Positions 4,581-62,100 of a stretch of DNA of 64,000 nucleotides are shown here, piece by piece. How positions within the stretch are numbered: the first letter of the stretch is position 1; every line of letters begins with the position of its first letter. A program made the position numbers and the translations under genes. The notes under the pieces were generated by a model that did no database searches, was not told where the DNA came from, and saw only the letters and a list, made by a program, of their open reading frames with translations. This DNA comes from Heptranchias perlo (taxonomy: Eukaryota): assembly GCF_035084215.1 (NCBI RefSeq), contig NC_090364.1:4402001-4466000 (forward strand), read 5' to 3'.

Positions 4581-4757
4581 TTTTTTTTCCCTTTCCTTTT
4601 TATGTGTTTTAGGCCCCCCTTTTATAAGAAGGGGAGGGGGGTTTGGTTGTGTTTATGTGCAGTAAATCAATAAACCCCAAATAAGTGTCAAATTATAATG
4701 TTATTACATCGATCCAGGATGCACTCCAGTCCCTGCGGTGCCCACCGGTCACGGAAA
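4581..4757 (-). mobile_element. 5'-truncated Tx1-like element 3' end with T-rich tail
   Basis: T-rich run + AGGCCCCCCTTTTATAAGAAGGGG ... CCAGGATGCACTCCAGTCCCTGCGGTGCCCACCGGTCACGGAAA closely matches 52229-52375. Confidence 0.85.
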
Positions 4758-5052: not shown

Positions 5053-8275
<3,223 letters not shown>

Positions 8276-15728: not shown

Positions 15729-15990
15729 CTAGATGAACCTCACTTATAAAAAGTCAACCTGGAGAAAAAAAAACTTTCAATCCTATTCGTGTTTGGACAA
15801 TTAGCTCCAAACGGGAAAATTTATCTGGAGTTTGGAGCCCGTGTGGAGATTCGAGTGATCCATGGCCACAGAGCACCGAGGGAATGATTGGTCCGTCAAC
15901 CAGCCGGCACCAGTACCTCAGGCCAGTCCCACCGTCCCTTCAGAGCTCACTGATCTGCACAAAGAAAAAGTGCCCCATCTTAGAGTTATT

Positions 15991-16146
15991 TTCTTTGGGT
16001 TTTTTTCTATTTTTTTTGTGATTTTAGGACGCCCTTCTATGAGAAGGTGGGGGTTTTAGGGTGTGTTTATGTGTGAAAATCCCAAAGCAAAACCAAAACA
16101 AGTTCAAATTATAATTTTATTATTCTTGTCCAGGATGCACTCCAGT
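15991..16146 (-). mobile_element. Short 5'-truncated Tx1-like 3' end with probable 9-bp TSD
   Basis: T-rich tail...TTCAAATTATAATTTTATTATTCTTGTCCAGGATGCACTCCAG, flanked by AGAGTTATT (15982-15990) and AGAATTATT (16147-16155). Confidence 0.75.
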
Positions 16147-18550: not shown

Positions 18551-21001
18551 TAAATTGTATGCAGGAATAAATCTTATTGTTTTGTGCTCCTGTTTATTCA
18601 GTAGAAGATGGGAGGTCTCACACCCTGGACTATATGATGACTTGTCTGACTTTTTATACAGACTGAGACCTGGGCTCTTGATGTGGAATGTGGTAGTAAC
18701 TGTAAATTAAACAGTGAACATTAGACTGGTTTTGTATCCTTGTTAAAATTTTGAGCTGTTGCTTATTCATTAGTAATTTAATTTGCTTTATATCTAACAC
18801 GAACTATATTGGCCTGTTTGACACTGTCTCACATAATGAGACATTCGGACAGGTGAGCAGGAGGGAGGAAATGCCAAAGCTCAGAAGTGAGGCAGCTGCA
18901 TACAAGTAACTGTTCCCATTGGTCATGAACATCCTCTCTCTCCCCTGACCATTAATGTTAACTATCCACCTGCCAATCAGCTGCTGTAATTTTTTTGTTA
19001 AACCACAATGCCAGTGAATTAGTGTTGCACCATTTCAGTCCAATGTTCAACCTGTAAGAATGGTATTTGCCCTGGGAATAGTAGTGCAGGTCTTTTTACT
19101 TAAAAAAAAGTAAAATGCTATAGATCTTCTGTTACTAATTAGAGGGAGCTCACTCAATGAAACTCATCACTGCTGTTATAGACTCTGAAAGTTTGTGAGC
19201 AAAGTAGCACATGATGGTTCTACAGAACCAGTAGTGTCTAAATTCACTGTGAGCTCCCTGAACTCATGCAACCAATGGGCTTAGACTTGGGTGAGCCGCC
19301 AATAACAACAATTGCTCTTGGGTGGAAGTGTAGATTCTGGGGGTGGTGAGTTGTGATTTTTTTTTTTCATTCTTCCACCACCCCCAAATGGACAATTTTC
19401 TACCTCCTTTTCCCCCCTCGACCCTAAACCTGCCTATCTAACCCAACATGTGCAAGAAATTGGGTGAAGTAGTGGAGGGAGAATAATCCCAGTGCCACTG
19501 AAGTCAAGCAAAATGCAATCTTACAGGAAGGAGCAAATATTTCATTCAATGCACATCTTGAAACACCAAGTTAACTGCAACTAGTTCACCTGGGGGAAAA
19601 ACTTCTCGAAACCCCCTACACTGTTCCACTAATTCATAAACCTAATACAAGCAATTCCTCCATGAATGTAACAATTTGACTTTCAGCCCATTGTGCATTG
19701 CATTCCACATACTCACCATCCTTTCCAAATCCTGATGGTTCTCCATTTGTCTCCTTCACCCCCATGAATGGATTCAAATGTTGATGCTGCAGCTGTAATT
19801 ATCCAGTGTTTACAATTCAAGTTTTGGATCTTAATTGTGAACTGCACTGGGTGTGATGGAATTGCAGTCTTCAGTCATTCCACGTTAATGTCTTTGAATC
19901 TCTCAAAGCACTTTTGGCGGATCAATGTCACCACATTTCATACGTTGCTGAGCCACGATTGTACGAGTCGGTGTGGATTTGTTGACTGGTTTCATGACTT
20001 CATATTTCAGACAAAAAGTTTTCAGCTCGCTCTGTGCTGAATCTGGATGTGGATCAGCTGCAAACATTCCCCACACTGAGGTCACAACTGGGCTAATGGG
20101 AGTTAACTGTTTACAACTCACAAAAAATTTTGATCAAAGTTCACCCCACTCCGTGCTGATACGTTTCCTACAGTCTGACCACAAAGAAGCGCGGCCAATG
20201 AAGTACATTTGAAGTGTTGTAATGTAGAAGTGAATTTGCCCACAGGAAGATCCCACAAACAGCAATGAAATAAAGACCAGATAATCTGTTTGAGTGATGT
20301 TGGTTGAGAGAGAAACATTGGCCAAGACACTGGGGAGAACTCCCCTGCTCTTCCTCAAAATAGTGCTTAGGAACATTTTACATCTACCTGAGAGGGCAGA
20401 CTGGGCCTCTGTTTAATGAAAGACTCTATCTCCGACACTGCAGCACTCCCACAGTCAGCCTAGACTTTTTCCTCAAGTCTATCGATTGGCACTTGAACCC
20501 ATAACCTTCTGACTCTGAGGTGAGAGTGCAACGACTGAGCCACAGCTGACACAAATGGAGATGTTTGTGTGGGTGACATTGCATTCAGTAATCTTCACTC
20601 CCTCTCATTCTCGCTGAATATCCTGAAGTTTACCAAACAACATTTCATGAGAATCAAAACCAAAAATGATACATCCCACAATGCTTTGCCCAGTTGATGC
20701 CCCCATGCTGCCAATCCTCAGACACACCCATTCTCTATATTAGAACTGGGGACGATTCACACCATCCATGGGATGAAATTTCCATGTCTCTGTCCAATGG
20801 TTGGTTTGCAAATTCACTCAAGATGACTTGATTGCATTGAATATTGTCTCAGTGTCACAATTACTTACAAGTAATAAACTTGGCCAGATTATGAAAAGCA
20901 ACTTCAGTGAAAATATTAAATTATCAAATAATTCAAAGTTGTGATTCTGAAAGATTTATACAAAGAGGCACTTTTAGGGAGGTCAAAGAACCCAAAAAGC
21001 A

Positions 21002-21347
21002 TCAAAGGTGACCATCCACAGGTCCTGGCTGGATGCGGCCCGTGGGGGCGGTCGCTCTGACTCTCTGCCTCGCTTCCGCAGCATTCTCTGCGCCCGGGTG
21101 GCCCTGGAGAGGGAGCACACGGTGTCTGCTGGTAAACTTGAGGCTTTCCGAGACCGGTGGGAGGCGCAGAGCTCGGAGTACGTCCTCGACTCCGACAATA
21201 AAGTTATGATTTGATTCTGGTTTTGTTGGATTTCGTAATAAAGAAATGAAGGTGACAAAAATACAGGTGACACTGGGTCTAAAGACAGCAACACAAGTGC
21301 CCCATCTTAGAATTATTTTAGTCAAACAGAAGAAAAGAGGGAAAAAC
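21002..21347 (+). mobile_element. Tx1-like 3' relic upstream of copy 5 with 13-bp TSD
   Basis: TIHRSWLD..ARVALEREHTVSAGKLEAFRDRW, flanked by AACCCAAAAAGCA at 20989-21001 and 21348-21360. Confidence 0.85.
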
Positions 21348-21642
21348 AACCCAAAAAGCAGTGACATCACCGAGACCAATCACCCAAACCAGCCTGTATT
21401 CCAAAGCTCTGATTGGCTCTGGGTATCAACCCCTCCCCCACACCCCCTCTCCTTTGTTAATTGGTGCCTGGATTTATGGAAGATTCCTGATTGGCTATCA
21501 GGGATTGTCAATCATCATTGGTGATGTCATTCCTTGCTCAAATGGAGGCTGTCCCAATAGTATAAATACAAGAGCTTGTGAATGAAGAGGGTAGTTCTAG
21601 AATTGTCCAGGTGATAGTGAAGAGTGATAACAGAAATAGATG

Positions 21643-24039
<2,397 letters not shown>

Positions 24040-26558
24040 ACTGACTGCAGGGATAAAGCTTATTGTCTCGTGCTCCTGTTTATATAGTTGTGAGGACCTC
24101 ACCTTTACCAATCCTGTAGCAGTGATGACTTTTGTGACTTTGTATAAAGCTGCGATCTGGGCTCTTGATGTGAAATGTAATAGTAACTGTCAATAAACTG
24201 TAACATTGAACTGGAGACATCATAAAGTGAGTGGTGGCTTAAACTGAAAAATAACAGACTTCAGTTTATGTTGAACAAGAATTACACTGGGCTGTGGAAC
24301 AACTTCATGGGATTCAGTCCTGTGTAAATGTTTTTCTTTCTCCTTCTTCCACGCCCCCGCCCCCCCCACCACTCTCTGGAATAATTCTAATTTATTGACT
24401 TGAATGTTCAGGGTCTCATGGTGAGGATCTACCGTCAATTCTGTGTGTACCTTGAATGCAAATTGTATTTGAAACCAGCAGTGAAGAGCAATGCTGTGAT
24501 ACAAGTTCCTGATCGTACTGGTGATGAATATTCTCTTTGCATGAATTACAACTCTCTTTCCAAAACCCACCCCACTACAACAAAATATCAGCTGCTAAAA
24601 CATTGTGTGTTGTTAAATCAGCAGGGCAGTGAAGTAATGTTAAACCATATCAATCCAATGTACAATTCTATTTAAGAAAAGTATCGACCCTAAGATGAGT
24701 AGGTTAGGATTTTATTAAATTAAGTGGTTACAGATCTCATTCAGGTAGCACTGTGGGATACACAGGAAGTAGTTCATTAAATCAAACTCATCATTGCTAC
24801 TAAAGGCCTTCGAGTAAACTTTGTGGTCAGACCAGTACTGTGTGAACTCATAGTACTAAGGGACCTACAATTGGGGGAGGGAATTAACCAGGATTGGTAC
24901 ATTTGCTCACTATCCACTGGCCTCTTAAGGCAAAGTATGGATTCCCCAGGGGGAAAGATTGGCCCTCGGTTTGGAGGGCTTCTTTCTTTCCTCCACCGCG
25001 GGCCTGCCCCCACAAATGATTGAATAACCTGTGAATGCTCTTGGCTCATGTAAATAAGCAATGGGGTTCGGTACTGAAGGGGGAGTAATACCTGTGGGAC
25101 TAACTATACTCCAGCAAAATATAATCCTTCTGGAAGGAGTAAAAATATTGAAATGCACAAAACAAAATTTAAACCAAGTTAAATAGATATTTTGCCTGAA
25201 ACTCATCCACATCCCTGGTCCATCAATTCATAAACACAATACGACCAGCTCCTCCATAAATAGATCAATTTGCCTTTAGTTCCATTGTGCATTTCATATC
25301 AAATTGTAATCATCCTTTCCAAATCCTATTGGTTTTCCATTTGTCTCCTTCACCCCGATGAATGGATTCAAATGTTGATGCTGATGCTGTAATTATCCAG
25401 TGTTTCCAAGTGAAGTTTAGGAACTTAGTTGTGAACTGCACTGGGTGTGATGGAATTGCAGTCTTCAGTCTTCAGTCATTCCACGTTAATGTCTTTCCAT
25501 TTCTCAAACACTTTTGGGGGAACAACATTTCATACGTTGGTGAGTCACATTTCCAGCTGTTGGTTGGATTTGCTGACGGCTTCATATTTTGAGCAAAAAG
25601 TCTTCAGCTCACTCTGTGCTGGATGTGGATCAGCTGCAAACATTCCCCACGTGGAGATCTCAACCGGGCTGTTCACACCTCATAAAAAAAATTAGGTCAA
25701 TATTCACCTCGTTCCGTGCTGATACATTTCCTACAAAGAAGTGCGGCCAATAAAGTAACTGTTGTAATGTAGAAGTGAATTTGCCCACAGCAATATCCCA
25801 CAAACAGCAATGAAATAAAGACCAGATAATCTGTTTTAGTGATGTTGGTTGAGGGAGCAATATTGGCCAAGACAGTGGGGAGAACTCCCCTGCTCTTCCT
25901 CAAAACCATGCCAAGGGATCTTTTACATCCACCCGAGAGGGCAGACAGGGCCTCGGTTTAATGTCTCATCTGAAAGATGACATCTCTGACAGTGCATCGC
26001 TCCCTCAGCTCAGCTTAGATTTTGTCCTCAAGTCTATAGATTGAGACTTGAACCCACAACCTTCTGACTCTGAGGTGAGAGTGCTGCCACTGAGCCACAG
26101 CTGACACAAATGGGGATGTTTGTGTGGGTGACATTGCATTCAGTAATCTTCACTCCCTCTCATTCTCGCTGAATATCCTGAATTTTACCAAACAACATTT
26201 CATGAGAATTAAAACCAAAACAATGACACATCCCACAATGCTTTGCCCAGTTGATGCCCCCATGCTGCCAATCCTCAGACACACCCATTCTCGATATTAG
26301 AACTGGGGACGATTCACACCATCCATGGGATGGAATTTCCATGTCTCTGTCCAATGGTTGGTTTACAAATTCACTCAAGATGACTTGATTGCGTTGAATA
26401 TTGTCTCAGTGTCACAATTACTTACAAGTAATAAACTTGGCCAGATTATGAAAAGCAACTTCAGTGAAAATATTAAATTATCAAATAATTCAAAGTTATG
26501 ATTCTGAAAGATTTATACAAAGAGGCACATTTAGGGAGGTCAAAGAACCCAAAAAGCA

Positions 26559-26903
26559 TCAAAGGTGACCATCCACAGGTCCTGGCTGGATGCGGCCCGT
26601 GGGGGCGGTCGCTCCGACTCTCTGCCTCGCTCCGCAGCATTCTCTGCGCCCGGGTGGCCCTGGAGAGGGAGCACACGGTGTCTGCTGGTAAACTTGAGGC
26701 TTTCCGAGACCGGTGGGAGGCGCAGAGCTCGGAGTACGTCCTCGACTCCGACAATAAAGTTATGATTTGATTCTGGTTTTGTTGGATTTCGTAATAAAGA
26801 AATGAAGGTGACAAAAATACAGGTGACACTGGGTCTCAAGACAGAAACACAAGTGCCCCATCTTAGAATTATTTTAGTCAAACAGAAGAAAAGAGGGAAA
26901 AAC
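26559..26903 (+). mobile_element. Tx1-like 3' relic upstream of copy 6 with 13-bp TSD
   Basis: Near-identical to 21002-21347, with AACCCAAAAAGCA on both sides. Confidence 0.85.
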
Positions 26904-27198
26904 AACCCAAAAAGCAGTGACATCACCGAGACCAATCACCCAAACCAGCCTGTATTCCAAAGCTCTGATTGGCTCTGGGTATCAACCCCTCCCCCACACC
27001 CCCTCTCCTTTGTTAATTGGTGCCTGGATTTATGGAAGATTCCTGATTGGCTATCAGGGATTGTCAATCATCATTGGTGATGTCATTCCTTGCTCAAATG
27101 TCGGCTGTCCCAATAGTATAAATACAAGAGCTTGTGGGGGAAGAGGGTAGTTCTAGAATTGTCCAGGTGATAGTGAAGAGTGATAACAGAAATAGATG

Positions 27199-29604
<2,406 letters not shown>

Positions 29605-32360
29605 ACTGACTGCAGGGATAAAGCTTATTGTCTCGTGCTCCTGTTTATATAGTTGTGAGGACCTCACCTTTACCAATCCTGTAGTAGTGATTATTTTTGT
29701 GACATTGTATAAAGCTGCGATCTGGGCTCTTGATGTGAAATGTAATAGTAACTGTCAATAAACTGTAACATTGAACTGGAGACATCATAAAGTGAGTGGT
29801 GGTTTAAACTGGAAAAATAACAGACTTCAGTTTACATTGAACAAGAATTACACTGGGCTGTGGAACAACTTCATGGGCTTCAGTCCTGTGTAAATGTTTT
29901 TCTTTCCCTCCTGGAATAATTCCAATTTATTGACTTGGATGTTCATGGTGAGGATCTAACTTCAATTCTGTGTGTACCTTGAATGCAAATTGTATTTGAA
30001 ACCAGCAATGCTGTGATACAAGTTCCTGTTACTACTAGTGATGAATATTCTCGTTGCATAAATGACAACTCTCTTTTCAAAACCCACCCCACGATAACAA
30101 AATATCAGCTGATGTAACATTATGTGCTATTAAATCACCAGGGCAGTGAGCTAATGTTAAACCATATCAATCCAATGTACAATTCTATTTAAGAAAAGTA
30201 TCTACCTTGAGCTGTGCAGGCTAGGTTTTTAAAGTAAGCGGTTTCAGATCTCATTCAGGTATCAGTGTGGAATACATTGATGGTAGTTTATTAAACCAAA
30301 CTCATTATTGCTGGTAAAGGCCTTTGAGTAAACTTTGTGGTCAGACCAGTACTGTGTGAACTTGTAGGTCCTTCAGGACTATAATTGGGTGAAGGAATCA
30401 ACCAGGATTGGCACATTTGCTTACTATCCACTGGCCTCTTCTGGCAAAGTATGGATTCCCTAGAAGGAAAAGATTGGGGCTAAGTATGGAGGCTTCCTTG
30501 TTCCCATCCCCAATGGTTGAATAACCTGTGAGCACTCTTGACTCACATGAATAAGCAATTCGGTTCGGTACTGAAGGGGGAGTAATACCTGTGGGATTAA
30601 CTATACTCCAGCAAAATGTAATTCTTCTGCAAGGAGTAAAAACATTTAATTAAATGCCCAAAACAAATAATTTAAACCAAGTTAAATAGATATTTTGCCT
30701 AAAACTCATCCACATTGCTATTCCATCAATTCATAAACACAATACAACCAGCTCCACTATAAATATATCAATTTGCCTTTAGTTCCATTGTGCATTTCAT
30801 ATCAAATTGTAATCATCCTTTCCAAATCCTGTTGGTTCTCCATTTATCTCCTTCACTTCTATGAGTGGATTCAGATGCTAATGCTGTAATTATCCAACGT
30901 TTACAAGTGAAGTTTAGGAACTTAGTTGTGAACTGCACTGGGTGTGATGGAATTGCAGTCTTCAGTCATTCCACGTTAATGTCTTTCCATCTCTCAAAAA
31001 CACTTTTGGGGGATCAACATTTCATACATTGGTCAGTCACAGTACTCGCTTTGGATTTGCTGATCGGTTTGACGGCTTCATATTTTAAGCAAAATGTCTT
31101 CAGCTCACTCTGTGCTGGATGTGGATCAGCTGCAAACATTTCCCCCACATGGAGGTCTCAACCGGGCTAATGGTTAACTGTTTATACCTCACAAAAAAAA
31201 TTAGATGAATGTTCACCTCGTTCCGTGCTGATACATTTCCTACAGCCTGACTACAAAGAAGTGCGGCCAATGAAGTAACTGTTGTAATGGAGAAGTGAAT
31301 TTGCCCACAGCAAGATCCCACAAACAGCAATGAAATAAAGACCAGATAATCTGTTTTAGTGATGTTGGTTGAGGGATCAATATTTGCCAAGATAGGGGGG
31401 AGAACTCCCCTGCTCTTCCTCAAAATAGTGCTGAGGGATCTTTTACATCTACCCGATAGGGCAGATGGGGCCTCGGTTTAATGTCTCATCTGAAAGACTC
31501 TATCTCTGACAGTGCATCGCTCCCTCAGCTCAGCTTAGACTTTGTCCTCAAATCGATTGAGTGGGACTTGAACCCACAAACTTCTGACTCTGAGGTGAGA
31601 GTGCTACCACTGAGCCACAGCTGACACAAATGGAGATGTTTGTGTGGGTGACATTGCATTCAGCAATCTTCACTCCCTCTCATTCTCGCTGAATATCCTG
31701 AATTTTACCAAACAACATTTCATGAGAATCAAAACTAAAAATGACACATCCCACAATGCTTTGCCCAGTTGATGCCCCCATGCTGCCAATCCTCAGACAC
31801 ACCCATTCTCTATATTAGAACTGGGGACGATTCACACCATCCATGGGATGGAATTTCCATTTCTCTGTCCAATGGTTGGTTTGCAAATTCACTCAAGACT
31901 ACTTGTTTCCTCTGAATATTGTCTCAGCGTCACAATTACTGACAAGTAATAAACTTGACCAGATTAAGAAAAGCCACTCTGGTGAAAATAGCAAATTATT
32001 ATCAAATAATTCAAAGTTGCCATTTCGAGAGATTGAAACAAAGAGAAACTTTCAGATTTGAGGAAATTCAAAGACCCCAAAAGCAGTGACATCACCGAGA
32101 CTGATTATCCAAATCGGCCTGTATTCCAAACCTCTGATTGGCTCTGGGTATCAACCCCTCCCCACACTGCCTCTCTGTTAATTGGTTCAATGGACGATTC
32201 CTGATTGGCTATTAGGGATTGTCAATCATCATTGGTGATGCCATTGCTGACCAAAATGCAGGCAATCCCAGTCATATAAATACAAGAGCTTGTGAGAGAA
32301 GAGGTTAGTTTGAGAACTTCTTGAGTAATAGTTGAAAGTACTAATATTGAAATAGTGATA

Positions 32361-36236: not shown

Positions 36237-36548
36237 CCAAAGGTGACCATCCACAGGTCCAGGCTGGACGCGGCACGTGGGGGCGGTCGCTCTGAATCTC
36301 GTCTATCATTCTCTGCGACTGGATGGCCCTGGAGAGGGAGCACGCGGTGTCTGCCGTTATGCTTGAGGCTTTCCGCAACCGGTGGGCTCCGGAGGGATTG
36401 GAGTGCATCCTGGATCAATACAATAAAATTAGAATTTGACACTTATTTTGGGTTTATTGATTTGCTGCACATAAAAACACTCCCTAACCCCCTCCTCCAC
36501 CACTTCTTATAAAAGGGGGGCCGAAAACAAAGAAGAAGAAAAGAAAAC
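36237..36548 (+). mobile_element. Tx1-like 3' relic upstream of copy 8
   Basis: Same type as 15430-15728; 3'UTR CTTCTTATAAAAGGGGGGCC and an A-rich tail. Confidence 0.85.
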
Positions 36549-41053: not shown

Positions 41054-41371
41054 CCAAAGGTGACCATCCACAGGTACAAGACGGACACGGCCTGTGGGGG
41101 CGGTCGCTCCGACTCTCGTCCGCAGCATTCTCTGCGCCCACTTGGCCCTGGAGAAGAGCATTCCGTGTCTGCCGTTATGGTTGAGGCTTTCCGCGACTGG
41201 TGGGAGCAGCAGGGACTGGAGCGAATCCTCGACTCTAACAATAAAGTTATAATTTGATTCTGGTTTTGTTTGATATCGTGACAAAGAAAACAAGATGTCT
41301 AAAAAAAAATACAGGTGACACTGGGTCTCAAGACAGTTACACAAGTGCCCCATCTCAGAATTATTTTAGTC
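41054..41371 (+). mobile_element. Tx1-like 3' relic upstream of copy 9
   Basis: TIHRY..GGGRSD..VEAFRDWWEQQGLERILDSNNKVII; same 5' breakpoint as the other + strand relics. Confidence 0.8.
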
Positions 41372-51717: not shown

Positions 51718-52035
51718 CCAAAGGCGACCATCCACAGGTACAAGACGGACACGGCCTGTGGGGGCGGTCGCTCCGACTCTCGTCCGCAGCATTCTCTGCG
51801 CCCACTTGGCCCTGGAGAAGAGCATTCCGTGTCTGCCGTTATGGTTGAGGCTTTCCGCGACTGGTGGGAGCAGCAGGGACTGGAGCGAATCCTCGACTCT
51901 CACAATAAAGTTATAATTTGATTCTGGTTTTGTTTGATATCGTGATAAAGAAATCAAGATGTCCAAAAAAAAATACAGGTGACACTGGGTCTCAAGACAG
52001 TTACACAAGTGCCCCATCTTAGAATTATTTTCGTC
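51718..52035 (+). mobile_element. Tx1-like 3' relic upstream of unit 11
   Basis: Near-identical to 41054-41371. Confidence 0.8.
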
Positions 52036-52045
52036 CAAAAAAAAA

Positions 52046-52159
52046 GATATCACCGAGACCAATCACCCAAACCAGCCTGCATTCCAAAGCTCTGATTGGC
52101 TCTGGGTATCAACCTCTCCTCCACCACACCCCTGTCCTTTGTTAATTGGTGCCTGGATT
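52046..52159 (+). promoter_or_regulatory. Distal half of the ferritin promoter of unit 11, interrupted by retrotransposon insertion
   Basis: Matches ~41386-41499 up to GGTGCCTGGATT, then switches to poly-T. Confidence 0.9.
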
Positions 52160-52304
52160 TTTTTTTTTTTTTTTTTTTTTTTTTCCTTTCTTTTTTCTTT
52201 TTTTTTTTCTCTTTTTTTTTTAATTATTAGGCCCCCCTTTTATAAGAAGGGGGGGTGTGGGGTGTGCTTAAATACTAAAAACCAAATAAACCAAAACCAA
52301 GTGT

Positions 52305-55300
52305 TCAAATTAAAATTTTATTATCCTCGTCCAGGATGCACTCCAGCCCCTGCGGTGCCCACCGGCCGCGGAAAGCCTCGAGCGTACCGGCAGACACCGC
52401 GTGCTCCATCTCCAGGGCCACCCGGGCGCGGAGCATTCCGCGGAAGAGAGGCAGACAGGCCGAGCGACCGCCCCCACGGACCACGATCATCCTAGACCTG
52501 TGGATGGCCACCTTGGACAGGCCCAGGAGCAGGCCCACGAGAACGTCCACCGACCTGCCCGCCCCCCTCCTCACCGGGCGGCCAAAGATCAGGAGCGTGG
52601 GACTGAAATGCAGCCAGAACTTGAGGAGCAGCCCCTTCAAATAATGGAACAGGGGCTGCAGTCTCGCACACCCAGTGTACAGATGGAACACGGACTCCTC
52701 CAGGCCGCAGAAATCACACGCGGCCTGGGTGTCCGTGAAATGGCGTAACCGCCGGTTGCACGCGACTGCTCCGTGCGCCACCCTCCACCCCAGATCCCCA
52801 AAGTAACACGGGAGGACCCCTGTATAGAGAGCCTCCCAATGGGGACCCCCGTCTCCGCCGGACGGCAGGCTGGCACGCCAGGGCGTGTCCGGCCGAGAGA
52901 CGAGGGCGAGGAAGTGGATGGTGTGCAGGAGCAGCCCGTACAGGAAATCCCTCCGCGCGGTGTGAAACGGCACGGAGGGAATTTCCGAGAGACGACTCAA
53001 GTTGTGAGGCGCGGCCCCCCGAGGGAGGTTCCGGGGTTTGGCGCCGAGGAGGAATTCCGTCCGAACGGGGGTCAGGTCGGACGGGATGGCTCCGCACGCC
53101 TGAGCCGCCTCCACATCCCGAGTGGAGTCAGGGCCGAGCGCCGATTTCAACGCCCGGATGGCGATGGCCGCGTCCCCGGCACGCCACGAGGACATCCGTG
53201 CGGCGAGCGCCCACGGCTCCAACCAACCCGACCCACCGCCATCCAGGACGTCCCTGACTCTGGTCACCCGACCGGCCACGGCCCTCCGCACCGACAGCCG
53301 CGAGCGGCCGAAGCCGATATCGCGGAGGAACGGATTCCCGAGCAGCGGCTCCTGCAGGACGGCCGCTACCCCTGACGGGCGAGAGCTCCGACCGGAGGCG
53401 ACCATGTTCCAGACCCTGAGCAGATCCTGGTAAAAGACAGGCAGCTCCTGCAAAGACGTGCGGCCGCCCACCAGCGAGATGAACAGGAGCTGCGTGTCGT
53501 AGTTCAGGCCGTGCAGCTGGCGGAAAAAATACGTCGCCAGCGCACGCCATCTAAGAGGACGCTCAACGTACAGGTATCGCCGCAGCGTCCGAAGGCGGAA
53601 AGTTGCCACCTGGGTGCGGACGCACACCAGCCCCTGACCGCCCTCCCTAAGCGGGAGACTCAGGACCGCGGCAGCGACCCAGTGTATCCCTCTGGCCCAG
53701 AAGAAGTCGACAAACTTCTTCTGAATCTTGGCGACAAACTCAGGGGGGGGGGTCAAAGTGACCAACCGGTACCACAACATGGCGGCCACCAGCTGGTTTA
53801 TGACCAGCACACGACCCCTGTAGGATAACACTCGGAGCAGTCCTGTCCAGCGCGCCAGGCGAGCGGCGACCTTGGCCTCCAGCTCTTCCCAGTTCGCCGG
53901 CCAGGCTTCCTCGGCAGGGCCGAGGTAGACTCCCAGGTACCGGAGGTGCGTGGTACTCCAGGCGAAAGGCCAGAGCTCCTCCGGCAGGGAGTCCACCCGC
54001 CACTGACCCACCAGGAGTCCGGAACATTTCTCCCAGTTGATCCTTGCGGAAGACGCCGCAGAGTAGACCTCTTGGCACTCGCGCATCCTCCGCAAGTCAA
54101 GGGGATCCGTGACCACGAGGAGCACGTCGTCGGCGTAAGCCGAAAGGACGACCTCCACGTCCGGCTCGCGCAGAGCCAGTCCCGACAACCTCTTGCGCAA
54201 GAGGCGCAGGAAAGGCTCCACGCAGACGGCGTATAATTGGCCGGACATGGGGCACCCCTGACGCACTCCTCTCCCGAAGCGAAGGGGCGCCGTCAAGGAT
54301 CCGTTAACCTTAATCAGACACTCCGCGGCGGCGTACAGAAGTCGGATCCGGGCGACGAAATGCGACCCGAACCCGAAAGCGCGCAGAGTCCCGAATAGAT
54401 ACTCGTGATCCACCCTGTCGAACGCCTTCTCCTGATCTAAGGAAAGGAAGGCGACCGACAGACCAGCCCTCTGGGAATGGTGGATCAGGTCCCGGACCAG
54501 ATGGATGTTATCGTGGATCTTCCGGCCCGGGACCGTGTAGGACTGGTCGGGGTGGATCATGTGGGCCAGCACGGTGCCCAGGCGAGCAGACATCGCCTTG
54601 GCAAAGACCTTATAATCCGTGCTGAGGAGGGAGACCGGGCGCCAGTTTTTAAGGTTGCGGAGATCCCCCTTCTTAGGCAGCAGGACCACGACCGCCCTGC
54701 GCCACGAAAGGGGCATCTCCCCGGTCGCCAGACATTCCCCCAGGACCCGCGCGTAGTCGCCCCCCAGGACGTCCCAGAAGGCCCTGAGGAACTCCACGGT
54801 CAGCCCGTCCAGCCCCGGGGACTTGCCCCTGGAGAGCTGGTGGAGGGCGCCGGTCAGCTCCGCCAAACTGAGCGGAGCGTCCAGACGCTCGGCGTCCTCC
54901 GGGCCGACCTTCGGCAAGTCCTCCCACAAAACTCTGCGCGCCTCCTCGCTGGACGGATCCGGAGAGAACAGAGCCTCGTAGAAAGATCGAGCCCGGGCCC
55001 TGACTCCCTCCGGGTCCGAGACGAGGGACCCGTCGTCGGCCAGCAGTGTAAGGAGCTGCTTACGAGCCCCCCGCCGCTTTTCCAGCGAGTAGAAGAAGGG
55101 AGAGCCGCGGTCCAGGTCCCGCAGGAGCTGGAGCCGCGACCTCACGTACGCTCCTCGGGACCCGACCAGTTGCAGGTCCCTCAGAGCGTCCTTCCTCTCC
55201 TCGTACACCTGCCGCAGGGCCGGATCCTCGGCGGCCTGACCGAGACGGGACTCCAGGCCAAGCACCTCCTGCTCCAACCGCCTGACCTCGGACTCCCGCC

Positions 55301-56210
55301 TCTTAGTCGACCCCCTCGCGTACTCTTGACAGAAGAGGCGGACGTGAGCCTTGCCCACGTCCCACCATAGCCTCAAGGAGGAGAAGCCTCCCCGCTTCCC
55401 TCTCCAGTCGCTCCAGAACAGACGGAACGAGTCCCGGAACCGCGCGTCCTCCAGCAGCCGGTTGTTAAAGTGCCAGTACGCGGACCCCGAACGGGCGCGG
55501 AGCAGAGCGAGCTCCATCCACACCAGGTGGTGGTCCGAGCACGACACCGGCCGGATGGAGGCCGACGGGACGCAGGAGGCGTACGCCCGCGAAACGTACA
55601 GGCGGTCGATTCTGGTGCTCCCCCCTCCGGCCCTCACAAAGGTGAACTGGCCGGAGTCGGGATGGAGATTCCGCCAGACGTCCACCAAGTCGAAGGACCC
55701 GACCAGGTCCCTCAACTTCTCCGTCGCCGTTCGGGCACGCGCGGGACCGGAGCGGTCCCTCGCCTCGAGGGTACGGTTAAAATCCCCCCCGAGGATAATG
55801 CACTCGCCGGCGTCGACGGAGTTTAGGTAAGTGGACACTTCTTCAAAGAAGCTCACTTGCTCGCCCTCGGACCAGGGGGCGTACACGTTCACCAGGTGAA
55901 GCGGCACGTCCCCGTGGCGAAGGGCTACGTGGAGCAAGCGGCCCGGCACCGGCTCCTTGACCCCCAAGATCTCCGGCTGAAAAGTCGGGGCCAACAAGAT
56001 GGCCACCCCGCTCGAAACGCTGGCGAGGTGACTCAAGTAGACCCCCCCTCCCCATTCCAGGATCCACGTGGCCTCGTCTCCCGGAACGGTGTGGGTTTCC
56101 TGCAGAAAGCACACCGCATACTTCCCATCCCGCAGGACCGAGAACTTGTCAAATCTACGGCGGGCGTCTCTGCCGCCGTTGATGTTGAGGCTGGCTATGG
56201 TTATCTCCAT
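52305..56210 (-). CDS. Tx1-like ORF2: APE endonuclease, reverse transcriptase and C-terminal zinc finger (1301 aa from MEITIASLN)
   Basis: APE motifs SLNING, LQETH, GGDFN, RIDR, SDH. RT motifs KSPGLDG, NWRPVSLL, LDQEKAFD, GVRQGCP, YADD, YLGV. C-terminal CDFC..ESVFHLYTGC. Confidence 0.95.
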   Translation of the reverse strand: MEITIASLNINGGRDARRRFDKFSVLRDGKYAVCFLQETHTVPGDEATWILEWGGGVYLSHLASVSSGVAILLAPTFQPEILGVKEPVPGRLLHVALRHGDVPLHLVNVYAPWSEGEQVSFFEEVSTYLNSVDAGECIILGGDFNRTLEARDRSGPARARTATEKLRDLVGSFDLVDVWRNLHPDSGQFTFVRAGGGSTRIDRLYVSRAYASCVPSASIRPVSCSDHHLVWMELALLRARSGSAYWHFNNRLLEDARFRDSFRLFWSDWRGKRGGFSSLRLWWDVGKAHVRLFCQEYARGSTKRRESEVRRLEQEVLGLESRLGQAAEDPALRQVYEERKDALRDLQLVGSRGAYVRSRLQLLRDLDRGSPFFYSLEKRRGARKQLLTLLADDGSLVSDPEGVRARARSFYEALFSPDPSSEEARRVLWEDLPKVGPEDAERLDAPLSLAELTGALHQLSRGKSPGLDGLTVEFLRAFWDVLGGDYARVLGECLATGEMPLSWRRAVVVLLPKKGDLRNLKNWRPVSLLSTDYKVFAKAMSARLGTVLAHMIHPDQSYTVPGRKIHDNIHLVRDLIHHSQRAGLSVAFLSLDQEKAFDRVDHEYLFGTLRAFGFGSHFVARIRLLYAAAECLIKVNGSLTAPLRFGRGVRQGCPMSGQLYAVCVEPFLRLLRKRLSGLALREPDVEVVLSAYADDVLLVVTDPLDLRRMRECQEVYSAASSARINWEKCSGLLVGQWRVDSLPEELWPFAWSTTHLRYLGVYLGPAEEAWPANWEELEAKVAARLARWTGLLRVLSYRGRVLVINQLVAAMLWYRLVTLTPPPEFVAKIQKKFVDFFWARGIHWVAAAVLSLPLREGGQGLVCVRTQVATFRLRTLRRYLYVERPLRWRALATYFFRQLHGLNYDTQLLFISLVGGRTSLQELPVFYQDLLRVWNMVASGRSSRPSGVAAVLQEPLLGNPFLRDIGFGRSRLSVRRAVAGRVTRVRDVLDGGGSGWLEPWALAARMSSWRAGDAAIAIRALKSALGPDSTRDVEAAQACGAIPSDLTPVRTEFLLGAKPRNLPRGAAPHNLSRLSEIPSVPFHTARRDFLYGLLLHTIHFLALVSRPDTPWRASLPSGGDGGPHWEALYTGVLPCYFGDLGWRVAHGAVACNRRLRHFTDTQAACDFCGLEESVFHLYTGCARLQPLFHYLKGLLLKFWLHFSPTLLIFGRPVRRGAGRSVDVLVGLLLGLSKVAIHRSRMIVVRGGGRSACLPLFRGMLRARVALEMEHAVSAGTLEAFRGRWAPQGLECILDEDNKILI

Positions 56211-56239
56211 GGCAAGAGCACAGCGCAACCTACTTAAAG

Positions 56240-58282
56240 CTAACGCGCGGAGGGAGCGGGGCCGCTCGTCGACCGCCACTCCCTCAAGAGCCCGGTGAGG
56301 AGGGATCTGAGCCGACGCAGCCCGACCCCGCCGTCGTCCCCTTCCGCGGCCACGGACGCGACGGCGGCCAGGACCGAGCGGATTAACTGCGCCGGCTCCG
56401 ACCAACGGTCGAGGGCCAGCCGGACGCCATCGCGACGACGGCTCCAACCGGACGCAAAATCCCGGAGTTCCTCAACGGGGATGAGGGGAGACTCGGTGCC
56501 GGGCACGAGGGCGTCCACCACCTCACTGGCGGCGAACTCTAAATCCTCCCCAGTGCCCACCACCGAGTCCCCGTCCTCCTCCGGGTCATCGTCGCCCGCG
56601 GCCGACCCACTCCCCGCACAGGGTGCGGAGAACGAGACGGCCGCGCCGGCCAGCCCCGCCTCCGCCACGATCCCACCCCCAGGATCGTCGGCAGAGGAGT
56701 CCTCCCCGGGCTCCACCGGGGGGTCCGAGTCAGACGGCGGCGCCGGGCGGGGACCCTCCCCAGCCTCCGAGCGGTGAAAAACCGGCACCCGGATATAAGG
56801 GGAACCCGGGGAAACCGGGGAGAACGTGTACTCAAGTTCTCCCACCTCCCCCGGCTCCGAGCCCAGAGACTGAGAGGAGGGGGTCTCCCCACCCACGTCG
56901 CCACCGACCGACCCGGCCGGTGAGATATTCTGGTTAAAACCCACCACCAGGTCGAGCAGGTCCTGGGAGAGGTCGAGCCGGGGGCAGACGAATTTGGCCG
57001 CAACGGCCTCGCCCACCCCGGCACCCAGGACGCCCGACCCGGTGAACAGGGTAGTGTCGGGTAAATGCGGATCCGCGACCCCCCCTATCGGCGGGGTCTC
57101 TCCATCCCCCCCGGGAGGCACGGGCACGATCTCCTCCCCCCGAGAGGTGGATGACCCCCGCCGCTGTTCGGATGTCACGGGCGGGGCCGCAGGATCCGCG
57201 ACCGGCACCGACTCCCCTTCCACGGGGGGCCGTCCCTTAGCAGGGAGCCCGTTCGCTTCCGGGGAGTGGCGCCTCTTTTTCTTCCCGGGGGGTCGCGGAG
57301 GGAGGGGGAACTCCACGTCTGCTGGGACCCCCACCTCCGCTCCCTCCTGATCACCCGCCAGCCCGGGCTCTGTCGCGACCGCGAGATGTTGACTGGCCGC
57401 GGTCACGGCCTCGGGCTGACTCAGATCTTCTCTGTCCCGGGGACCAGCCTCTAAATTCTTCCTCTTTCTCCGCGCCTTTCTCTGGCGAGGGTTCCCCTCC
57501 TCCCCCCTGGCGGAGGCCTCGACGCCAACCTCCACCCGCGCAGTTGACTGTCCCGACGCGGGGGCGGGGTTGGGGGGAGGAGCGGTGGCGGCGCCAGCCC
57601 CGGCCGCCGTAGCTGTTTTGGCGGCCTGAGAGGCAGGGCAGTTCCTCTTCAGGTGCCCCACCTCCTTACAGGCATGGCACCGCCCACCCTCTGCCGTCCA
57701 AAAGACGCGGTAAGGGATCCCCTCGTGGAGGGCGTTAAAGCCCCCCTCCGTAACCTCCTCCCGTGCCAGCTTGACGAATGCCTGGCGACGGAAGGAGTAA
57801 ACATGCCGGAGGCTGTTCTCCCTGAGTCCGAGCGGCAGCGGCGTTACCCCCGACCTCACCTCCCCCAGTTGACGTAGGTGGGGGAGGAGGAGCTCGTCCG
57901 ACAGGAAAGGCGGGACGTTGGATAAAATGACTCGCTGCGCGGTGGCCTCCAGCGGGTCCACCGGCAGGAAGGTCCCGCCAACCGTGAGCCCCTTACTAAG
58001 GGCCAGGGACACCGCCCGCTCGGACCTCAGGAAGAACACCGCCCTCCCGTACATTTTTGAGGCCGCGACGATGGCCGAGGGGCCGACAACCTCGGCCATG
58101 GCCTTTACGCAGGCCTCAATGGTCATGTTGGGGTGGGCGTAGCTCTTCACCCCATGCTTCCTCGTAATGAGGCGGAAAGGCGCCGGCCCAGCAGGAGCGG
58201 CACGAACTGTAGGAGCGGCCCCCGAGGTAACCGCCGCATACGTCCTGCTGGGTCCCGGCACCGGCGAAGATGGTGAAGCCAT
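56240..58282 (-). CDS. Tx1-like ORF1: nucleic-acid-binding protein with CCHC zinc knuckle (680 aa from MASPSS)
   Basis: Long ORF upstream of ORF2 with CHACKEVGHLKRNC knuckle, an RRM-like N-terminal region (AASKMYGRAVFFL, VILSNVPPF), a basic NLS-like patch and a low-complexity C-terminal half. Confidence 0.9.
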   Translation of the reverse strand: MASPSSPVPGPSRTYAAVTSGAAPTVRAAPAGPAPFRLITRKHGVKSYAHPNMTIEACVKAMAEVVGPSAIVAASKMYGRAVFFLRSERAVSLALSKGLTVGGTFLPVDPLEATAQRVILSNVPPFLSDELLLPHLRQLGEVRSGVTPLPLGLRENSLRHVYSFRRQAFVKLAREEVTEGGFNALHEGIPYRVFWTAEGGRCHACKEVGHLKRNCPASQAAKTATAAGAGAATAPPPNPAPASGQSTARVEVGVEASARGEEGNPRQRKARRKRKNLEAGPRDREDLSQPEAVTAASQHLAVATEPGLAGDQEGAEVGVPADVEFPLPPRPPGKKKRRHSPEANGLPAKGRPPVEGESVPVADPAAPPVTSEQRRGSSTSRGEEIVPVPPGGDGETPPIGGVADPHLPDTTLFTGSGVLGAGVGEAVAAKFVCPRLDLSQDLLDLVVGFNQNISPAGSVGGDVGGETPSSQSLGSEPGEVGELEYTFSPVSPGSPYIRVPVFHRSEAGEGPRPAPPSDSDPPVEPGEDSSADDPGGGIVAEAGLAGAAVSFSAPCAGSGSAAGDDDPEEDGDSVVGTGEDLEFAASEVVDALVPGTESPLIPVEELRDFASGWSRRRDGVRLALDRWSEPAQLIRSVLAAVASVAAEGDDGGVGLRRLRSLLTGLLREWRSTSGPAPSAR

Positions 58283-58980
58283 GACTGAGAGCCACACCCA
58301 CCCCAAGTCTCAGGCCTTTGGATGGAAATTGGCCTTTTTTTTTAAAAGAATTCTTGAGGATACCTCTCTCCCCGAATCCCAGTGCTTGGTTGGGAGAGGG
58401 CCCCTTTGTTGTTTTTATATATTCCCAGAATACCCCGGAGAGCAAGGGAATATCCCAGAGAGCAGGAGAAGGTGGGAGGGATGGATGGCAGAATGGGAAG
58501 GAGGGAGTCTGCAGGGGTCGGCTGCTGCAGAAGTGGGTGGAAGAGGGGCGGGGTTGCACCTTAAAAGGTGGATCCTCTTCTGCCTGTCTTCCGGTGGGCA
58601 GGGGGAGGAGATGTCTTCCCCTAGACAGCTGGAGCTGCCTAGGCTCAGCCCTCCAAAGATTTGAAAAAGAAAGTAACTTCACCCAGGCAGCTCCAGCTGT
58701 CCCGGGCCAGACACTTGGGGGGGGACCCCTGTCCTCTGAAGTCTTCTTCCTCCCCCTACCTTCAGCCGACACACCTCACTGCACCGACCACCTCTTCCTC
58801 CCACTGGTTGGTGCTCTTTTTCTCCTTCTCCCTCCCTCCTTGTTGATGGTGGTTTCTCCTTCTTTCTCCTTCTCCTTCTCCTTCTCCCCAAGGGACCCAG
58901 GCAAGGGCCTGCTCTCTCTGCTCTCTCTGCTCTCCACTCCACTCAGTGGCAGTCCAGCCACAAACACCTCCAAGGCCTTG

Positions 58981-59065
58981 CTGGTCTGTATTGCAAAGCT
59001 CTGATTGGCTCTGGATATCAATCTCTCCCCCAGAGCCCTGTCCTTTGTTAATTGGTGCTTGGATT
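58981..59065 (+). promoter_or_regulatory. Ferritin-promoter segment between the two retrotransposons
   Basis: CTGTATTGCAAAGCTCTGATTGGCTCTGGATATCAATC...CCTTTGTTAATTGGTGCTTGGATT is homologous to every array promoter. Confidence 0.9.
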
Positions 59066-59160
59066 TTTTTTCTTTTTTTTTATTAGGCCCCCCTTTTATA
59101 AGAAGGGGTGGTGTGGGGTGTGCTTAACAACTAAAAACCAAACAAACCAAAACCAAGAGT

Positions 59161-62100
59161 TCAAATCAAAATTTTATTATCCTCGTTCAGGATGCACTCC
59201 AGCCCCTGCGGTGCCCACCGGTCGCGGAAAGCCTCGAGTGTACCGGCAGACACCGCGTGCTCCATCTCCAGGGCCACCCGGGCGCGGAGCAACCCGCGAA
59301 AGAGAGGCAGACAGGCCGAGCGCCCACCCCCGCGGACCGCGAGCATCCTGGACCTGTGGATAGCCACCTTGGACAGGCCCAGGAGCAGGCCCACGAGAAC
59401 GTCCACCGACCTGCCCGCCCCCCTCCTCACCGGGCGGCCAAAGATCAGGAGCGTGGGACTGAAATGCAGCCAGAACTTGAGGAGCAGCCCCTTCAAATAA
59501 TGGAACAGGGGCTGCAGTCTCGCACACCCGGTGTACAGATGGAACACGGACTCCTCCAGGCCGCAGAAATCGCAAGCGGCCTGGGTGTCCGTAAAATGGC
59601 GTAACCGCCGGTTGCACGCGACTGCTCCGTGCGCCACCCTCCACCCCAGATCCCCAAAGTAACACGGGAGGACCCCTGTATAGAGAGCCTCCCAATGGGG
59701 ACCCCCGTCTCCGCCGGACGGCAGGATGGTACACCAGGGCGTGTCCGGGCGAGAGACGAGGGCGAGGAAGTGGATGGTGTGCAGGAGCAGCCCGTACAGG
59801 AAATCCCTCCGCGCGGTGTGAAACGGCACGGAGGGAATTTCCGAGAGACGACTCAAGTTGTGAGGCGCGGCCCCCCGAGGGAGGTTCCGGGGTTTGGCGC
59901 CGAGGAGGAACTCCGTCCGAACGGGGGTCAGGTCGGACGGGATGGCTCCGCACGCCTGAGCCGCCTCCACATCCCGAGTGGAGTCAGGGCCGAGCGCCGA
60001 TTTCAACGCCCGGATGGCGATGGCCGCGTCCCCGGCACGCCACGAGGACATCCGTGCGGCGAGCGCCCACGGCTCCAACCAACCCGACCCACCGCCATCC
60101 AGGACGTCCCTGACTCTGGTCACCCGACCGGCCACGGCCCTCCGCACCGACAGCCGCGAGCGGCCGAAGCCGATATCGCGGAGGAACGGATTCCCGAGCA
60201 GCGGCTCCTGCAGGACGGCCGCTACCCCTGACGGGCGAGAGCTCCGACCGGAGGCGACCATGTTCCAGACCCTGAGCAGATCCTGGTAAAAGACAGGCAG
60301 CTCCTGCAAAGACGTGCGGCCGCCCACCAGCGAGACGAACAGGAGCTGCGTGTCGTAGTTCAGGCCGTGCAGCTGGCGGAAAAAATACGTCGCCAGCGCA
60401 CGCCATCTAAGAGGACGCTCAACGTACAGGTATCGCCGCAGCGTCCGAAGGCGGAAAGTTGCCACCTGGGTGCGGACGCACACCAGCCCCTGACCGCCCT
60501 CCCTAAGCGGGAGACTCAGGACCGCGGCAGCGACCCAGTGTATCCCTTTGGCCCAGAAGAAGTCGACGAACTTCCTCTGAATCTTGGCGACAAACTCGGG
60601 GGGGGGGTCAAAGTGACCAATCTGTACCACAACATGGCGGCCACCAGCTGGTTTATGACCAGCACTCGACCCCTGTAGGGTAACACTCGGAGCAGTCCTG
60701 TCCAGCGCGCCAGGCGAGCGGCGACCTTGGCCTCCAGCTCTTCCCAGTTCGCCGGCCAGGCTTCCTCGGCAGGGCCGAGGTAGACTCCCAGGTACCGGAG
60801 GTGCGTGGTACTCCAGGCGAAAGGCCTGAGCTCCTCCGGCAGGGAGTCCACCCGCCACTGACCCACCAGGAGTCCGGAACATTTCTCCCAGTTGATCCTT
60901 GCGGAAGACGCCGCAGAGTAGACCTCTTGGCACTTGCGCATCCTCCGCAAGTCAAGGGGATCGGTGACCACGAGGAGCACGTCGTCGGCGTAAGCCGAAA
61001 GGACGACCTCCACGTCCGGCTCGCGCAGAGCCAGTCCCGACAACCTCTTGCGCAAGAGGCGCAGGAAAGGCTCCACGCAGACGGCGTATAATTGGCCGGA
61101 CATGGGGCACCCCTGACGCACTCCTCTCCCGAAGCGAAGGGGCGCCGTCAAGGATCCGTTAACCTTAATCAGACACTCCGCGGCGGCGTACAGAAGTCGG
61201 ATCCGGGCGACGAAATGCGACCCGAACCCGAAAGCGCGCAGAGTCCCGAATAGATACTCGTGATCCACCCTGTCGAACGCCTTCTCCTGATCCAAGGAAA
61301 GGAAGGCGACCGACAGACCAGCCCTCTGGGAATGGTGGATCAGGTCCCGGACCAGATGGATGTTATCGTGGATCTTCCGGCCCGGGACCGTGTAGGACTG
61401 GTCGGGGTGGATCATGTGGGCCAGCACGGTGCCCAGGCGAGCAGACATCGCCTTGGCAAAGACCTTATAATCCGTGCTGAGGAGGGAGACCGGGCGCCAG
61501 TTTTTAAGGTTGCGGAGATCCCCCTTCTTAGGCAGCAGGACCACGACCGCCCTGCGCCACGAAAGGGGCATCTCCCCGGTCGCCAGACATTCCCCCAGGA
61601 CCCGCGCGTAGTCGCCCCCCAGGACGTCCCAGAAGGCCCTGAGGAACTCCACGGTCAGCCCGTCCAGCCCCGGGGACTTGCCCCTGGAGAGCTGGTGGAG
61701 GGCGCCGGTCAGCTCCGCCAAACTGAGCGGAGCGTCCAGACGCTCGGCGTCCTCCGGGCCGACCTTCGGCAAGTCCTCCCACAAAACTCTGCGCGCCTCC
61801 TCGCTGGACGGATCCGGAGAGAACAGAGCCTCGTAGAAAGATCGAGCCCGGGCCCTGACTCCCTCCGGGTCCGAGACGAGGGACCCGTCGTCGGCCAGCA
61901 GCGTAAGGAGCTGCTTACGAGCCCCCCGCCGCTTTTCCAGCGAGTAGAAGAAGGGAGAGCCGCGGTCCAGGTCCCGCAGGAGCTGGAGCCGCGACCTCAC
62001 GTACGCTCCTCGGGACCCGACCAGTTGCAGGTCCCTCAGAGCGTCCTTCCTCTCCTCGTACACCTGCCGCAGGGCCGGATCCTCGGCGGCCTGACCGAGA

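What the first reader, a model, noticed from the sequence alone, without database searches (positions are those of the whole stretch)
58981..59065. The element's 5' end abuts its own copy of the target promoter, regenerating the target site and the displaced CCAAT boxes
Seen: ~85 bp of promoter sequence ending exactly at the insertion site sits at the 5' end of element 1. Its geometry fits a TSD, but it differs from the local left flank (52072-52159) by about a dozen changes including a 3-bp gap (e.g. TTGCAAAG vs TTCCAAAG, GGATATCAATC vs GGGTATCAACC, GCTTGG vs GCCTGG). That is too many for so young an element, and some variants match other paralogues (copies 4 and 8). Inference: the segment travels with the element RNA or was copied from a donor locus. 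It would restore two ATTGG boxes to the downstream gene, recreate the target and so explain head-to-tail stacking, and could guide 5' joining by homology, as with R2 elements carrying 28S sequence.
Basis: partly seen in the sequence, partly recalled or inferred. Interest (0 to 1): 0.85.

Follow-up and report, generated by a model that had tools for sequence, protein, structure and literature searches.

The report
Retrotransposon carries captured ferritin promoter
A Tx1-type retrotransposon that piles up in ferritin gene arrays has a piece of one ferritin gene's promoter fixed at its front end in dozens of copies, and it likely carries that piece on its RNA, so each new copy brings a fresh landing site for the next.

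Summary
Confirmed, with a decisive test. The host-derived piece is 58989-59063 (75 bp). It differs from the local left flank at 7 substitutions plus 3 gap bases, but at only 1 of 75 from the promoter of a different, uninterrupted ferritin paralogue ('G1') outside the window. The same junction stands at 33 element 5' ends on four contigs with unlike left flanks, and the segment runs up to 207 bp, through the TATA box. In one filled/empty pair, element plus the 207-bp piece lie inside a perfect 79-bp target duplication at a site that is not a G1 promoter. The segment is therefore element-borne, not a local TSD. It holds the reused insertion sites, which explains the stacks. RNA carriage is the likeliest route (0.7). 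DNA-level exchange also works here: element bodies are mosaic, and three junctions of the window's stack are identical copies. Restored ferritin expression is not shown; 5 of 8 gene-adjacent copies have a mutated TATA box. A sister subfamily carries another host piece next to zona pellucida promoters. Closest precedents: earwig R2's heritable pseudo-TSD and 5'-transducing SVAs. New variant of a known kind.

The parts
58989..59063 (+). Captured ferritin promoter segment of paralogue type G1 (first 75 bp of a piece that reaches 207 bp in other copies); it ends at insertion site A
   Evidence: 74 of 75 identical to uninterrupted G1 promoter L084; 7 substitutions plus 3 gap bases against the local flank
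58981..58988 (-). Element's own 5'-terminal bases; 58986-58988 (CTG) is a microhomology with the donor promoter. The 9-nt terminus seen in subfamily S2 and in the C30 copy is missing
59004..59008 (+). ATTGG (CCAAT box on the element's sense strand), box 1
   Evidence: seen directly
59051..59055 (+). ATTGG (CCAAT box), box 2
   Evidence: seen directly
52080..52157 (+). Local left flank: promoter of another paralogue type, ending at the same site A
   Evidence: empty equivalent at G000:C43:4630051
52158..58988 (-). Element 1, full-length Tx1-clade LINE (T-tract from 52158), subfamily S1
   Evidence: both ORFs open
56240..58282 (-). ORF1 with a zinc knuckle
   Evidence: zf-CCHC E 6e-4, just under the curated cut-off
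52305..56207 (-). ORF2, APE-type endonuclease plus reverse transcriptase, 1300 aa
   Evidence: Pfam PF03372 and PF00078; best hit Xenopus Tx1 149-kDa protein, 50% over full length
58624..58701 (-). Long hairpin in the element's 5' UTR
   Evidence: 58610-58715 folds at -68.3 kcal/mol, z -8.6; no Rfam family at gathering score
59064..64000 (-). Element 2 (tail and 3' part); continues to G000:C43:4467844 and has the same 5' segment
11167..12185 (+). Example ferritin gene of the tandem array (exons 1-2); its promoter holds the empty site A at about 11001

Best explanation
The segment is a piece of one ferritin paralogue's promoter that is fixed at the 5' end of a Tx1 subfamily (S1) and is likely copied from element RNA that begins upstream of the element, so that each full-length insertion would lay down a new copy of it. 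Shown: a founder junction to a G1-type promoter (9-nt terminus missing, CTG microhomology); the same junction in all held S1 copies; the segment inside a true TSD at an unrelated site; reuse of sites within the segment by further elements. Inferred: the founder sat antisense in a G1 promoter with a long duplication (this family makes 79-234 bp duplications at full-length insertions). Having lost its own start, it is transcribed from about +207, near the ferritin start site, or by read-through from the element stacked upstream. The cDNA end then joins either by homology into a ferritin promoter, replacing part of it, or by microhomology at a T-run. Unequal crossover and gene conversion then multiply and shuffle the stacks, including the three identical junctions of the window's stack.
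For: Filled/empty pair: C725:812622-819812 against C1048 (flanks 97.9% over 915 and 98.3% over 534 aligned bases). The insert is tail + element + 207-bp G1 segment inside a 79-bp TSD with 0 differences. The empty site was empty in all 12 further loci fetched, of 25 motif hits. 32 of 39 exact hits of a diagnostic 22-mer sit at element 5' junctions; 3 are uninterrupted G1 genes, 1 a G1 promoter hit at another site, 2 are 3' transductions, 1 a hybrid. First 75 bp: identical to the donor in 27 of 33 and one change in 6 of 33. Left flanks differ: other promoter sites, ferritin intron, other elements' 5' ends. Second case in the family: subfamily S4 has a piece of about 50-60 bp from a C13/C32-type locus between its 5' end and the T-run of zona pellucida promoter sequence in 3 copies, absent from 3 native promoters. 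Contigs of RNA-like runs with spliced ferritin joints bridge the element/segment junction (X1 5083-5468, X2 5083-5240, X4 5009-5326 on L067, junction at 5162). Precedent: earwig R2 (PMC3774820, passages).
Against: No RNA 5' end or strand was seen: contigs only, one sample, RNA status a guess. Only 1 of 25 stacked S1 junctions shows a clean segment-inside-TSD; a second candidate (C38:11853520) reads better as a short cDNA resolved on the resident element. The 32 full-length bodies compared are heavily mosaic and 3' type is not linked to 5' segment type. The window's left flank and the gene ending its stack belong to different paralogues. All 30 dispersed copies sampled are 5'-truncated while array copies are mostly full length, which points to completion on resident DNA copies. 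The single full-length S1-S3 copy outside the arrays (C30, S2 type) carries no promoter segment beyond 9 nt.
Confidence: 0.7

Rival explanations
1. The segment is never on the RNA. New, mostly truncated cDNAs in the arrays are completed by invading a resident element and copying its 5' end plus flank from DNA, and unequal crossover and gene conversion spread one founder junction.
For: Mosaic bodies. Identical junction and tail three times in the window's stack. Triplicated blocks with swapped right flanks on C43. A triple mosaic S3/G1/copy-8 promoter at C43:4588023. Excess of full-length copies in arrays against 0 of 30 among dispersed copies.
Against: At C725 both flanks come from one empty site with no G1 homology at the junction, and the 79-bp TSD is perfect. 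DNA copying would need invasion in trans, copying through the segment, and return by T-run microhomology. The S4 piece at zona pellucida promoters needs the same three steps. Switches to other paralogues lie within 70-185 bp of the junction.
Confidence: 0.24
2. Each copy's segment is its own long TSD, made at insertion and later mutated or converted.
For: The family does make long duplications: 202/203 bp at C30, 234 bp at the C13/C32-type locus, 79 bp at C725.
Against: The start is fixed while the right end varies over 8 offsets. The segment is G1-type whatever the left flank. At C725 the real TSD lies outside it. This reading can hold for the founder only.
Confidence: 0.04
3. Assembly artefact: repeats in a tandem array were misjoined.
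For: C725 and C1048 are small contigs that may be second haplotypes of C38; three junctions of the window's stack are identical.
Against: Neighbouring elements differ at dozens of sites and one has a 300-bp deletion. There are 22 distinct tails. Contigs of sequencing runs bridge the junction.
Confidence: 0.02

Closest known systems
Earwig R2 with a heritable duplication of downstream 28S sequence (PMC3774820, passages read)
   Same: All 5' junctions carry a duplicate of sequence from downstream of the target with substitutions (22 bp, 3 changes). [quoted passage not shown]
   Different: R2 clade, rDNA target, one site, HDV ribozyme. Here: an APE/Tx1 element, Pol II promoters of protein-coding arrays, antisense orientation, 75-207 bp, many sites, and no ribozyme match.
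Tx1 clade (Xenopus Tx1L, Keno, Kibi, Koshi, Tx1-Mar; PMC4494074, passages read)
   Same: Two ORFs, APE plus RT, preference for multicopy targets; some Tx1-Mar families have host (U1/U2) heads.
   Different: Targets named in the passages read are snRNA and 5S genes, microsatellites, satellites and transposons, not promoters of ferritin or zona pellucida arrays. The head here is a copy of the element's own target.
5'-transducing SVA groups and SVA_F1 with MAST2 (PMC12593883, passages read)
   Same: Host sequence fixed at the 5' end of a subfamily by one founding event, enclosed within TSDs, attributed to upstream promoters.
   Different: Non-autonomous and untargeted; the captured piece is not an insertion target and builds no stacks.
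R9Av of bdelloid rotifers
   Same: Exceptionally long TSD (title seen in the reference list of PMC12203849; the 126-bp figure is recalled).
   Different: RLE element in rDNA with a fixed TSD. Here long duplications (79, 202, 234 bp) were seen only at full-length copies; 22 of 30 truncated copies have 10-15 bp.

Membership tests
Tx1 clade LINE | ORF2 with N-terminal APE endonuclease and RT | tested here: met
   PF03372 E 8e-11, PF00078 E 3e-38
Tx1 clade LINE | ORF2 closest to Tx1 proteins | tested here: met
   Best hit Xenopus Tx1 149-kDa protein, 50% identity, 100% coverage; no tree was built
Tx1 clade LINE | ORF1 with CCHC knuckle; poly(A) tail; TSDs | tested here: met
   zf-CCHC 20.2 bits against cut-off 20.8 (marginal); tails; 10-15 bp TSD in 22 of 30 dispersed copies
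Strictly site-specific LINE (R2/Keno type) | One insertion site in one target | tested here: not met
   8 offsets within the segment, further sites in ferritin and zona pellucida promoters, at least 100 dispersed 3' ends on C1-C24. Strong preference remains: 27 of 47 3' ends of one young variant lie on the C38 and C43 array stretches, C725 and C1048
True target-site duplication | Identity with the copy's own opposite flank | tested here: not met
   10 differences against the local flank, 1 against the remote G1 promoter; the real TSD lies outside the segment at C725
5' transduction fixed in a subfamily | Host sequence between the element's 5' end and the TSD, traceable to a donor locus | tested here: met
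5' transduction fixed in a subfamily | RNA starts upstream of the element and includes the segment | tested here: inconclusive
   Unstranded contigs bridge the junction; no raw reads and no 5' ends
R2-type upstream-target co-transcript | HDV-like ribozyme at the 5' end | tested here: not met
   No ribozyme family among 7 sub-threshold Rfam hits in 58000-59400; a diverged ribozyme could be missed
R2-type upstream-target co-transcript | cDNA/target heteroduplex guides 5' joining | tested here: inconclusive
   Switches to other paralogues at 70-185 bp fit, but so does gene conversion; the C725 insertion used a T-run

The most novel reading that the evidence does not exclude
A LINE lineage specialises in the promoters of amplified, likely oocyte-expressed gene arrays (ferritin, zona pellucida) and has turned a stolen antisense copy of its target promoter into a heritable module. 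The module serves at once as its germline promoter, its 5' homing sequence and a self-renewing landing pad. Repeated loss of the TATA box retunes it from ferritin transcription to element transcription, and each insertion overwrites host promoters with one paralogue's version.
Probability: 0.3. Interest if true: 0.87.

Novelty: new variant of a known kind. Interest (0 to 1): 0.72.

Why it matters
It shows a way for a loosely targeted LINE to gain a self-made target: one long duplication at a founder is captured and inherited, and it then seeds stacks. It extends the earwig-R2 and SVA precedents to Pol II promoters of protein-coding arrays. It offers natural material on an open question, how LINE 5' ends are joined: short TSDs in truncated copies, 79-234 bp duplications in full-length ones, and homology or T-run joining. 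It also makes a retrotransposon a possible agent of promoter conversion in a family of at least 112 ferritin exon-1 copies. No report of Tx1 elements in ferritin or zona pellucida promoters turned up in the searches; the library lacks most subscription journals and Repbase was not available.

Tried and rejected
Founder with an ordinary 16-19 bp TSD at the GA|TT just inside the segment: no such 3' junction in the genome (0 hits). The founder's duplication length stays open, 75 bp (site A; C402 and C1392 transductions show a source element there) up to 207 bp. Ribozyme: only sub-threshold hairpin-type hits. RNA: no holder on record as RNA. In one search some ferritin-unit spacer bins had little or no cover while the element was covered throughout; lack of cover in contigs is not used as evidence. 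Segment-inside-TSD scan of 33 S1 copies: 9 lacked a located 3' end, 6 were gene-terminal, 18 were tested; one clean case. C38:11853520 was rejected as a second case. The C13, C32, C424 and C446 stacks are segmental duplicates of one locus, so they count once. The long 'TSD' at L145 lies in a tandem repeat and was dropped. The primary paper on 5'-transducing SVAs was not held. Earlier scan notes: nothing. No supplements were read; those of PMC4494074 list Tx1 targets and could bear on novelty.

Full report
SETTING. The window is G000:C43:4402001-4466000 of a 3.25-Gb genome. Self-comparison shows a tandem array of units of about 5.5 kb, each a ferritin gene on the + strand (Pfam Ferritin E 3e-11 on exon 2). 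An exact exon-1 motif has 112 hits, mostly on C38 and C43 among the 100 listed. Two LINEs lie on the minus strand. Element 1 runs from a T-tract at 52158 to 58988, with ORF1 (zinc knuckle, marginal score) and a 1300-aa ORF2 (APE and RT). Its best hit is the Xenopus Tx1 149-kDa protein, 50% over the full length. Partial hits of 67-71% from a ray and a shark suggest a cartilaginous fish host (inference). The element is antisense to ferritin; site A lies about 90 bp upstream of the TATA box.

THE OBSERVATION. The host-derived piece is 58989-59063. The eight bases before it belong to the element, because another subfamily continues them with AACAAAGAG. Against the local left flank (52080-52157) it has 7 substitutions and 3 gap bases. 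Against an uninterrupted ferritin paralogue on C38 (type G1, L084) it has 1 change in 75. The donor promoter and the element share CTG at the joint.

IS IT SHARED? A diagnostic 22-mer has 39 exact hits. All were inspected: 32 at element 5' junctions, 3 in uninterrupted G1 genes, 1 in a G1 promoter interrupted at another site, 2 as 3' transductions, and 1 in a hybrid promoter. Of 33 such junctions held (subfamily S1), the first 75 bp equal the donor in 27 and differ by one base in 6. Their left flanks are unlike each other: other promoter sites, ferritin intron, and the 5' ends of other elements. In 25 of 33 copies it ends in the tail of another element (24 of this family, one older relative), with 22 distinct tails at 8 offsets (75, 86, 110, 133, 136, 198, 206, 207; ten distinct tails at 207). 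In 8 of 33 it runs into a ferritin gene: 4 of type G1, 3 of type G2 after a switch at about 143-182, and 1 of the copy-8 type after a switch at about 126.

DECISIVE PAIR. C725:812622-819812 is a filled version of a site found empty at C1048 and in all 12 further loci fetched, of 25 motif hits. Both flanks match the empty site (97.9% over 915 and 98.3% over 534 aligned bases). The insert is tail + S1 element + the 207-bp G1 segment, then an 11-base T-run, inside a 79-bp duplication with no differences. The only longer likeness between segment and empty site is 37 bp at 81%, reversed and away from the joint. So the segment moved with the element in a single event and was joined at a T-run. This is one case: 18 S1 copies could be tested this way.

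THE FAMILY DOES THIS REPEATEDLY. A 5'-end pattern for subfamilies S1-S3 has 48 hits, 47 of them in the array regions. S2 and S3 abut other ferritin promoter segments of about 150-170 bp. The one outside copy (C30) has the 9-nt terminus, one extra base (G in element sense, possibly from the cap; inference) and a 202/203-bp local duplication. A fourth subfamily, S4, forms stacks at a segmentally duplicated locus (C13, C32, C424, C446) with a 234-bp duplication. About 50-60 bp of that locus stand between S4's 5' end and the T-run of zona pellucida promoter sequence on C38 (ZP-N domain E 2.5e-7) in 3 copies and are missing from 3 native promoters. In contrast, 30 dispersed copies (the first 30 listed of 252 exact 3'-end hits) are all 5'-truncated, and 22 of 30 have a 10-15 bp duplication at the joint. 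Three of the 30 carry ferritin promoter as a 3' transduction (one only 21 bp) and three carry pieces of S4's 5' end, so source elements sit in these arrays and stacks. Targeting is a strong preference, not a single site: 27 of 47 hits of one young 3' variant, and 39 of the first 100 listed of 115 of another, fall in the array regions.

RNA. Four runs of one sample, kept as contigs and only guessed to be RNA, hold the element. They show GT..AG ferritin joints. Three of them have a contig that bridges the element/segment junction with more than 31 bases on each side; one reaches ferritin exon 1. Strand and start are unknown, so this fits RNA carriage without showing it.

EVIDENCE FOR DNA-LEVEL SPREAD. 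Thirty-two full-length copies are mosaic along their length, and 3' type is not tied to 5' segment type. The window's stack has five elements. Three successive junctions are identical down to tail length. The left flank's empty equivalent (C43:4630051) has a different 5' UTR from the gene that ends the stack. The junction in this window is therefore probably a recombinational copy, even though the segment is element-borne across the family. The excess of full-length copies in arrays also suggests completion on resident copies. Ten of the 32 copies keep both ORFs open.

TATA BOX. Of 20 S1 segments that reach the TATA box, 14 have it mutated (five variants). Six of 22 distinct substitutions fall in its 8 bases (exposure-weighted expectation 3%, binomial p 4e-5). 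Of 62 ferritin genes without an S1-S3 junction, 58 keep TATAAATA. The test was post hoc, the copies are related, and one variant also occurs in an uninterrupted G2 gene. Five of 8 gene-adjacent segments are mutated, which argues against simple rescue of ferritin expression. Selection for antisense output or repeated nicking are untested explanations.

MECHANISM. Shown: capture from G1, a fixed junction, movement inside a TSD, reuse of sites within the segment, and mosaicism. Inferred: a founder with a long duplication lost its own start and is transcribed from within the host promoter or by read-through in stacks; cDNA ends join by promoter homology or at T-runs; recombination then amplifies the stacks. 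Odds: RNA carriage 0.70, DNA copying only 0.24, local TSD 0.04, artefact 0.02.

COMPARISON. It is a member of the Tx1 clade. It works like earwig R2, where all 5' junctions carry 22 bp of downstream 28S with three changes, attributed to propagation on the RNA (PMC3774820, passages), and like 5'-transducing SVAs (PMC12593883, passages). It is not an R2-type system: no single site and no ribozyme match. Tx1 targets named in PMC4494074 (passages) do not include protein-gene promoters. Searches (listings only) found no report of this target. Oocyte expression of zona pellucida genes is recalled knowledge; for these ferritin genes it is a guess.

VERDICT.

Noticed in passing
L116:4547-4948 (minus) and other C38, C725 and C1048 loci: A zona pellucida (ZP-N) multigene family is interspersed with the ferritin genes. 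The same LINE family inserts in its promoter, also at the TATA box in the sense orientation.
   Followed up: partly
L101 (G000:C30:36.827-36.835 Mb): Only full-length S1-S3 copy outside the arrays: 202/203-bp target duplication and one extra base at the 5' end.
   Followed up: yes
L221-L230 (C13, C32, C424, C446): S4 stacks next to a GC-rich, promoter-like sequence in a segmental duplication, with a 234-bp duplication; the gene was not identified.
   Followed up: partly
L010, L015, L022, C38:11846816: Tails made of alternating T-runs and short target fragments: serial 3' transductions of insertion sites.
   Followed up: partly
C725:569553-569688 (L151): A 3' transduction that holds the segment plus the next element's 5' end, which implies read-through RNA across a stack junction.
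   Followed up: partly
window 58624-58701: Very stable hairpin in the 5' UTR (z -8.6).
   Followed up: partly
window 4211-4331, 4578-4757, 15433-15728, 15989-16145, 21002-21225, 26559-26781, 36240-36547, 41057-41271, 51721-51935: Old 3' fragments (70-83% alike) of the same family in both orientations upstream of most ferritin copies, amplified with the array.
   Followed up: no
L023/L083 and L189: A short inversion between the GATTG and CAATC arms of the promoter in two separate contexts.
   Followed up: no
G000:C14:36187001-36196499 (L236): Cluster of about ten 3' fragments in tandem and inverted arrangement, unit about 950 bp.
   Followed up: no
C43:4588023: Triple-mosaic promoter: S3 segment, G1 segment, then copy-8-type gene.
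   Followed up: partly
window 19454-32082: Ferritin copies 5 and 6 have identical promoters, a recent tandem duplication.
   Followed up: no
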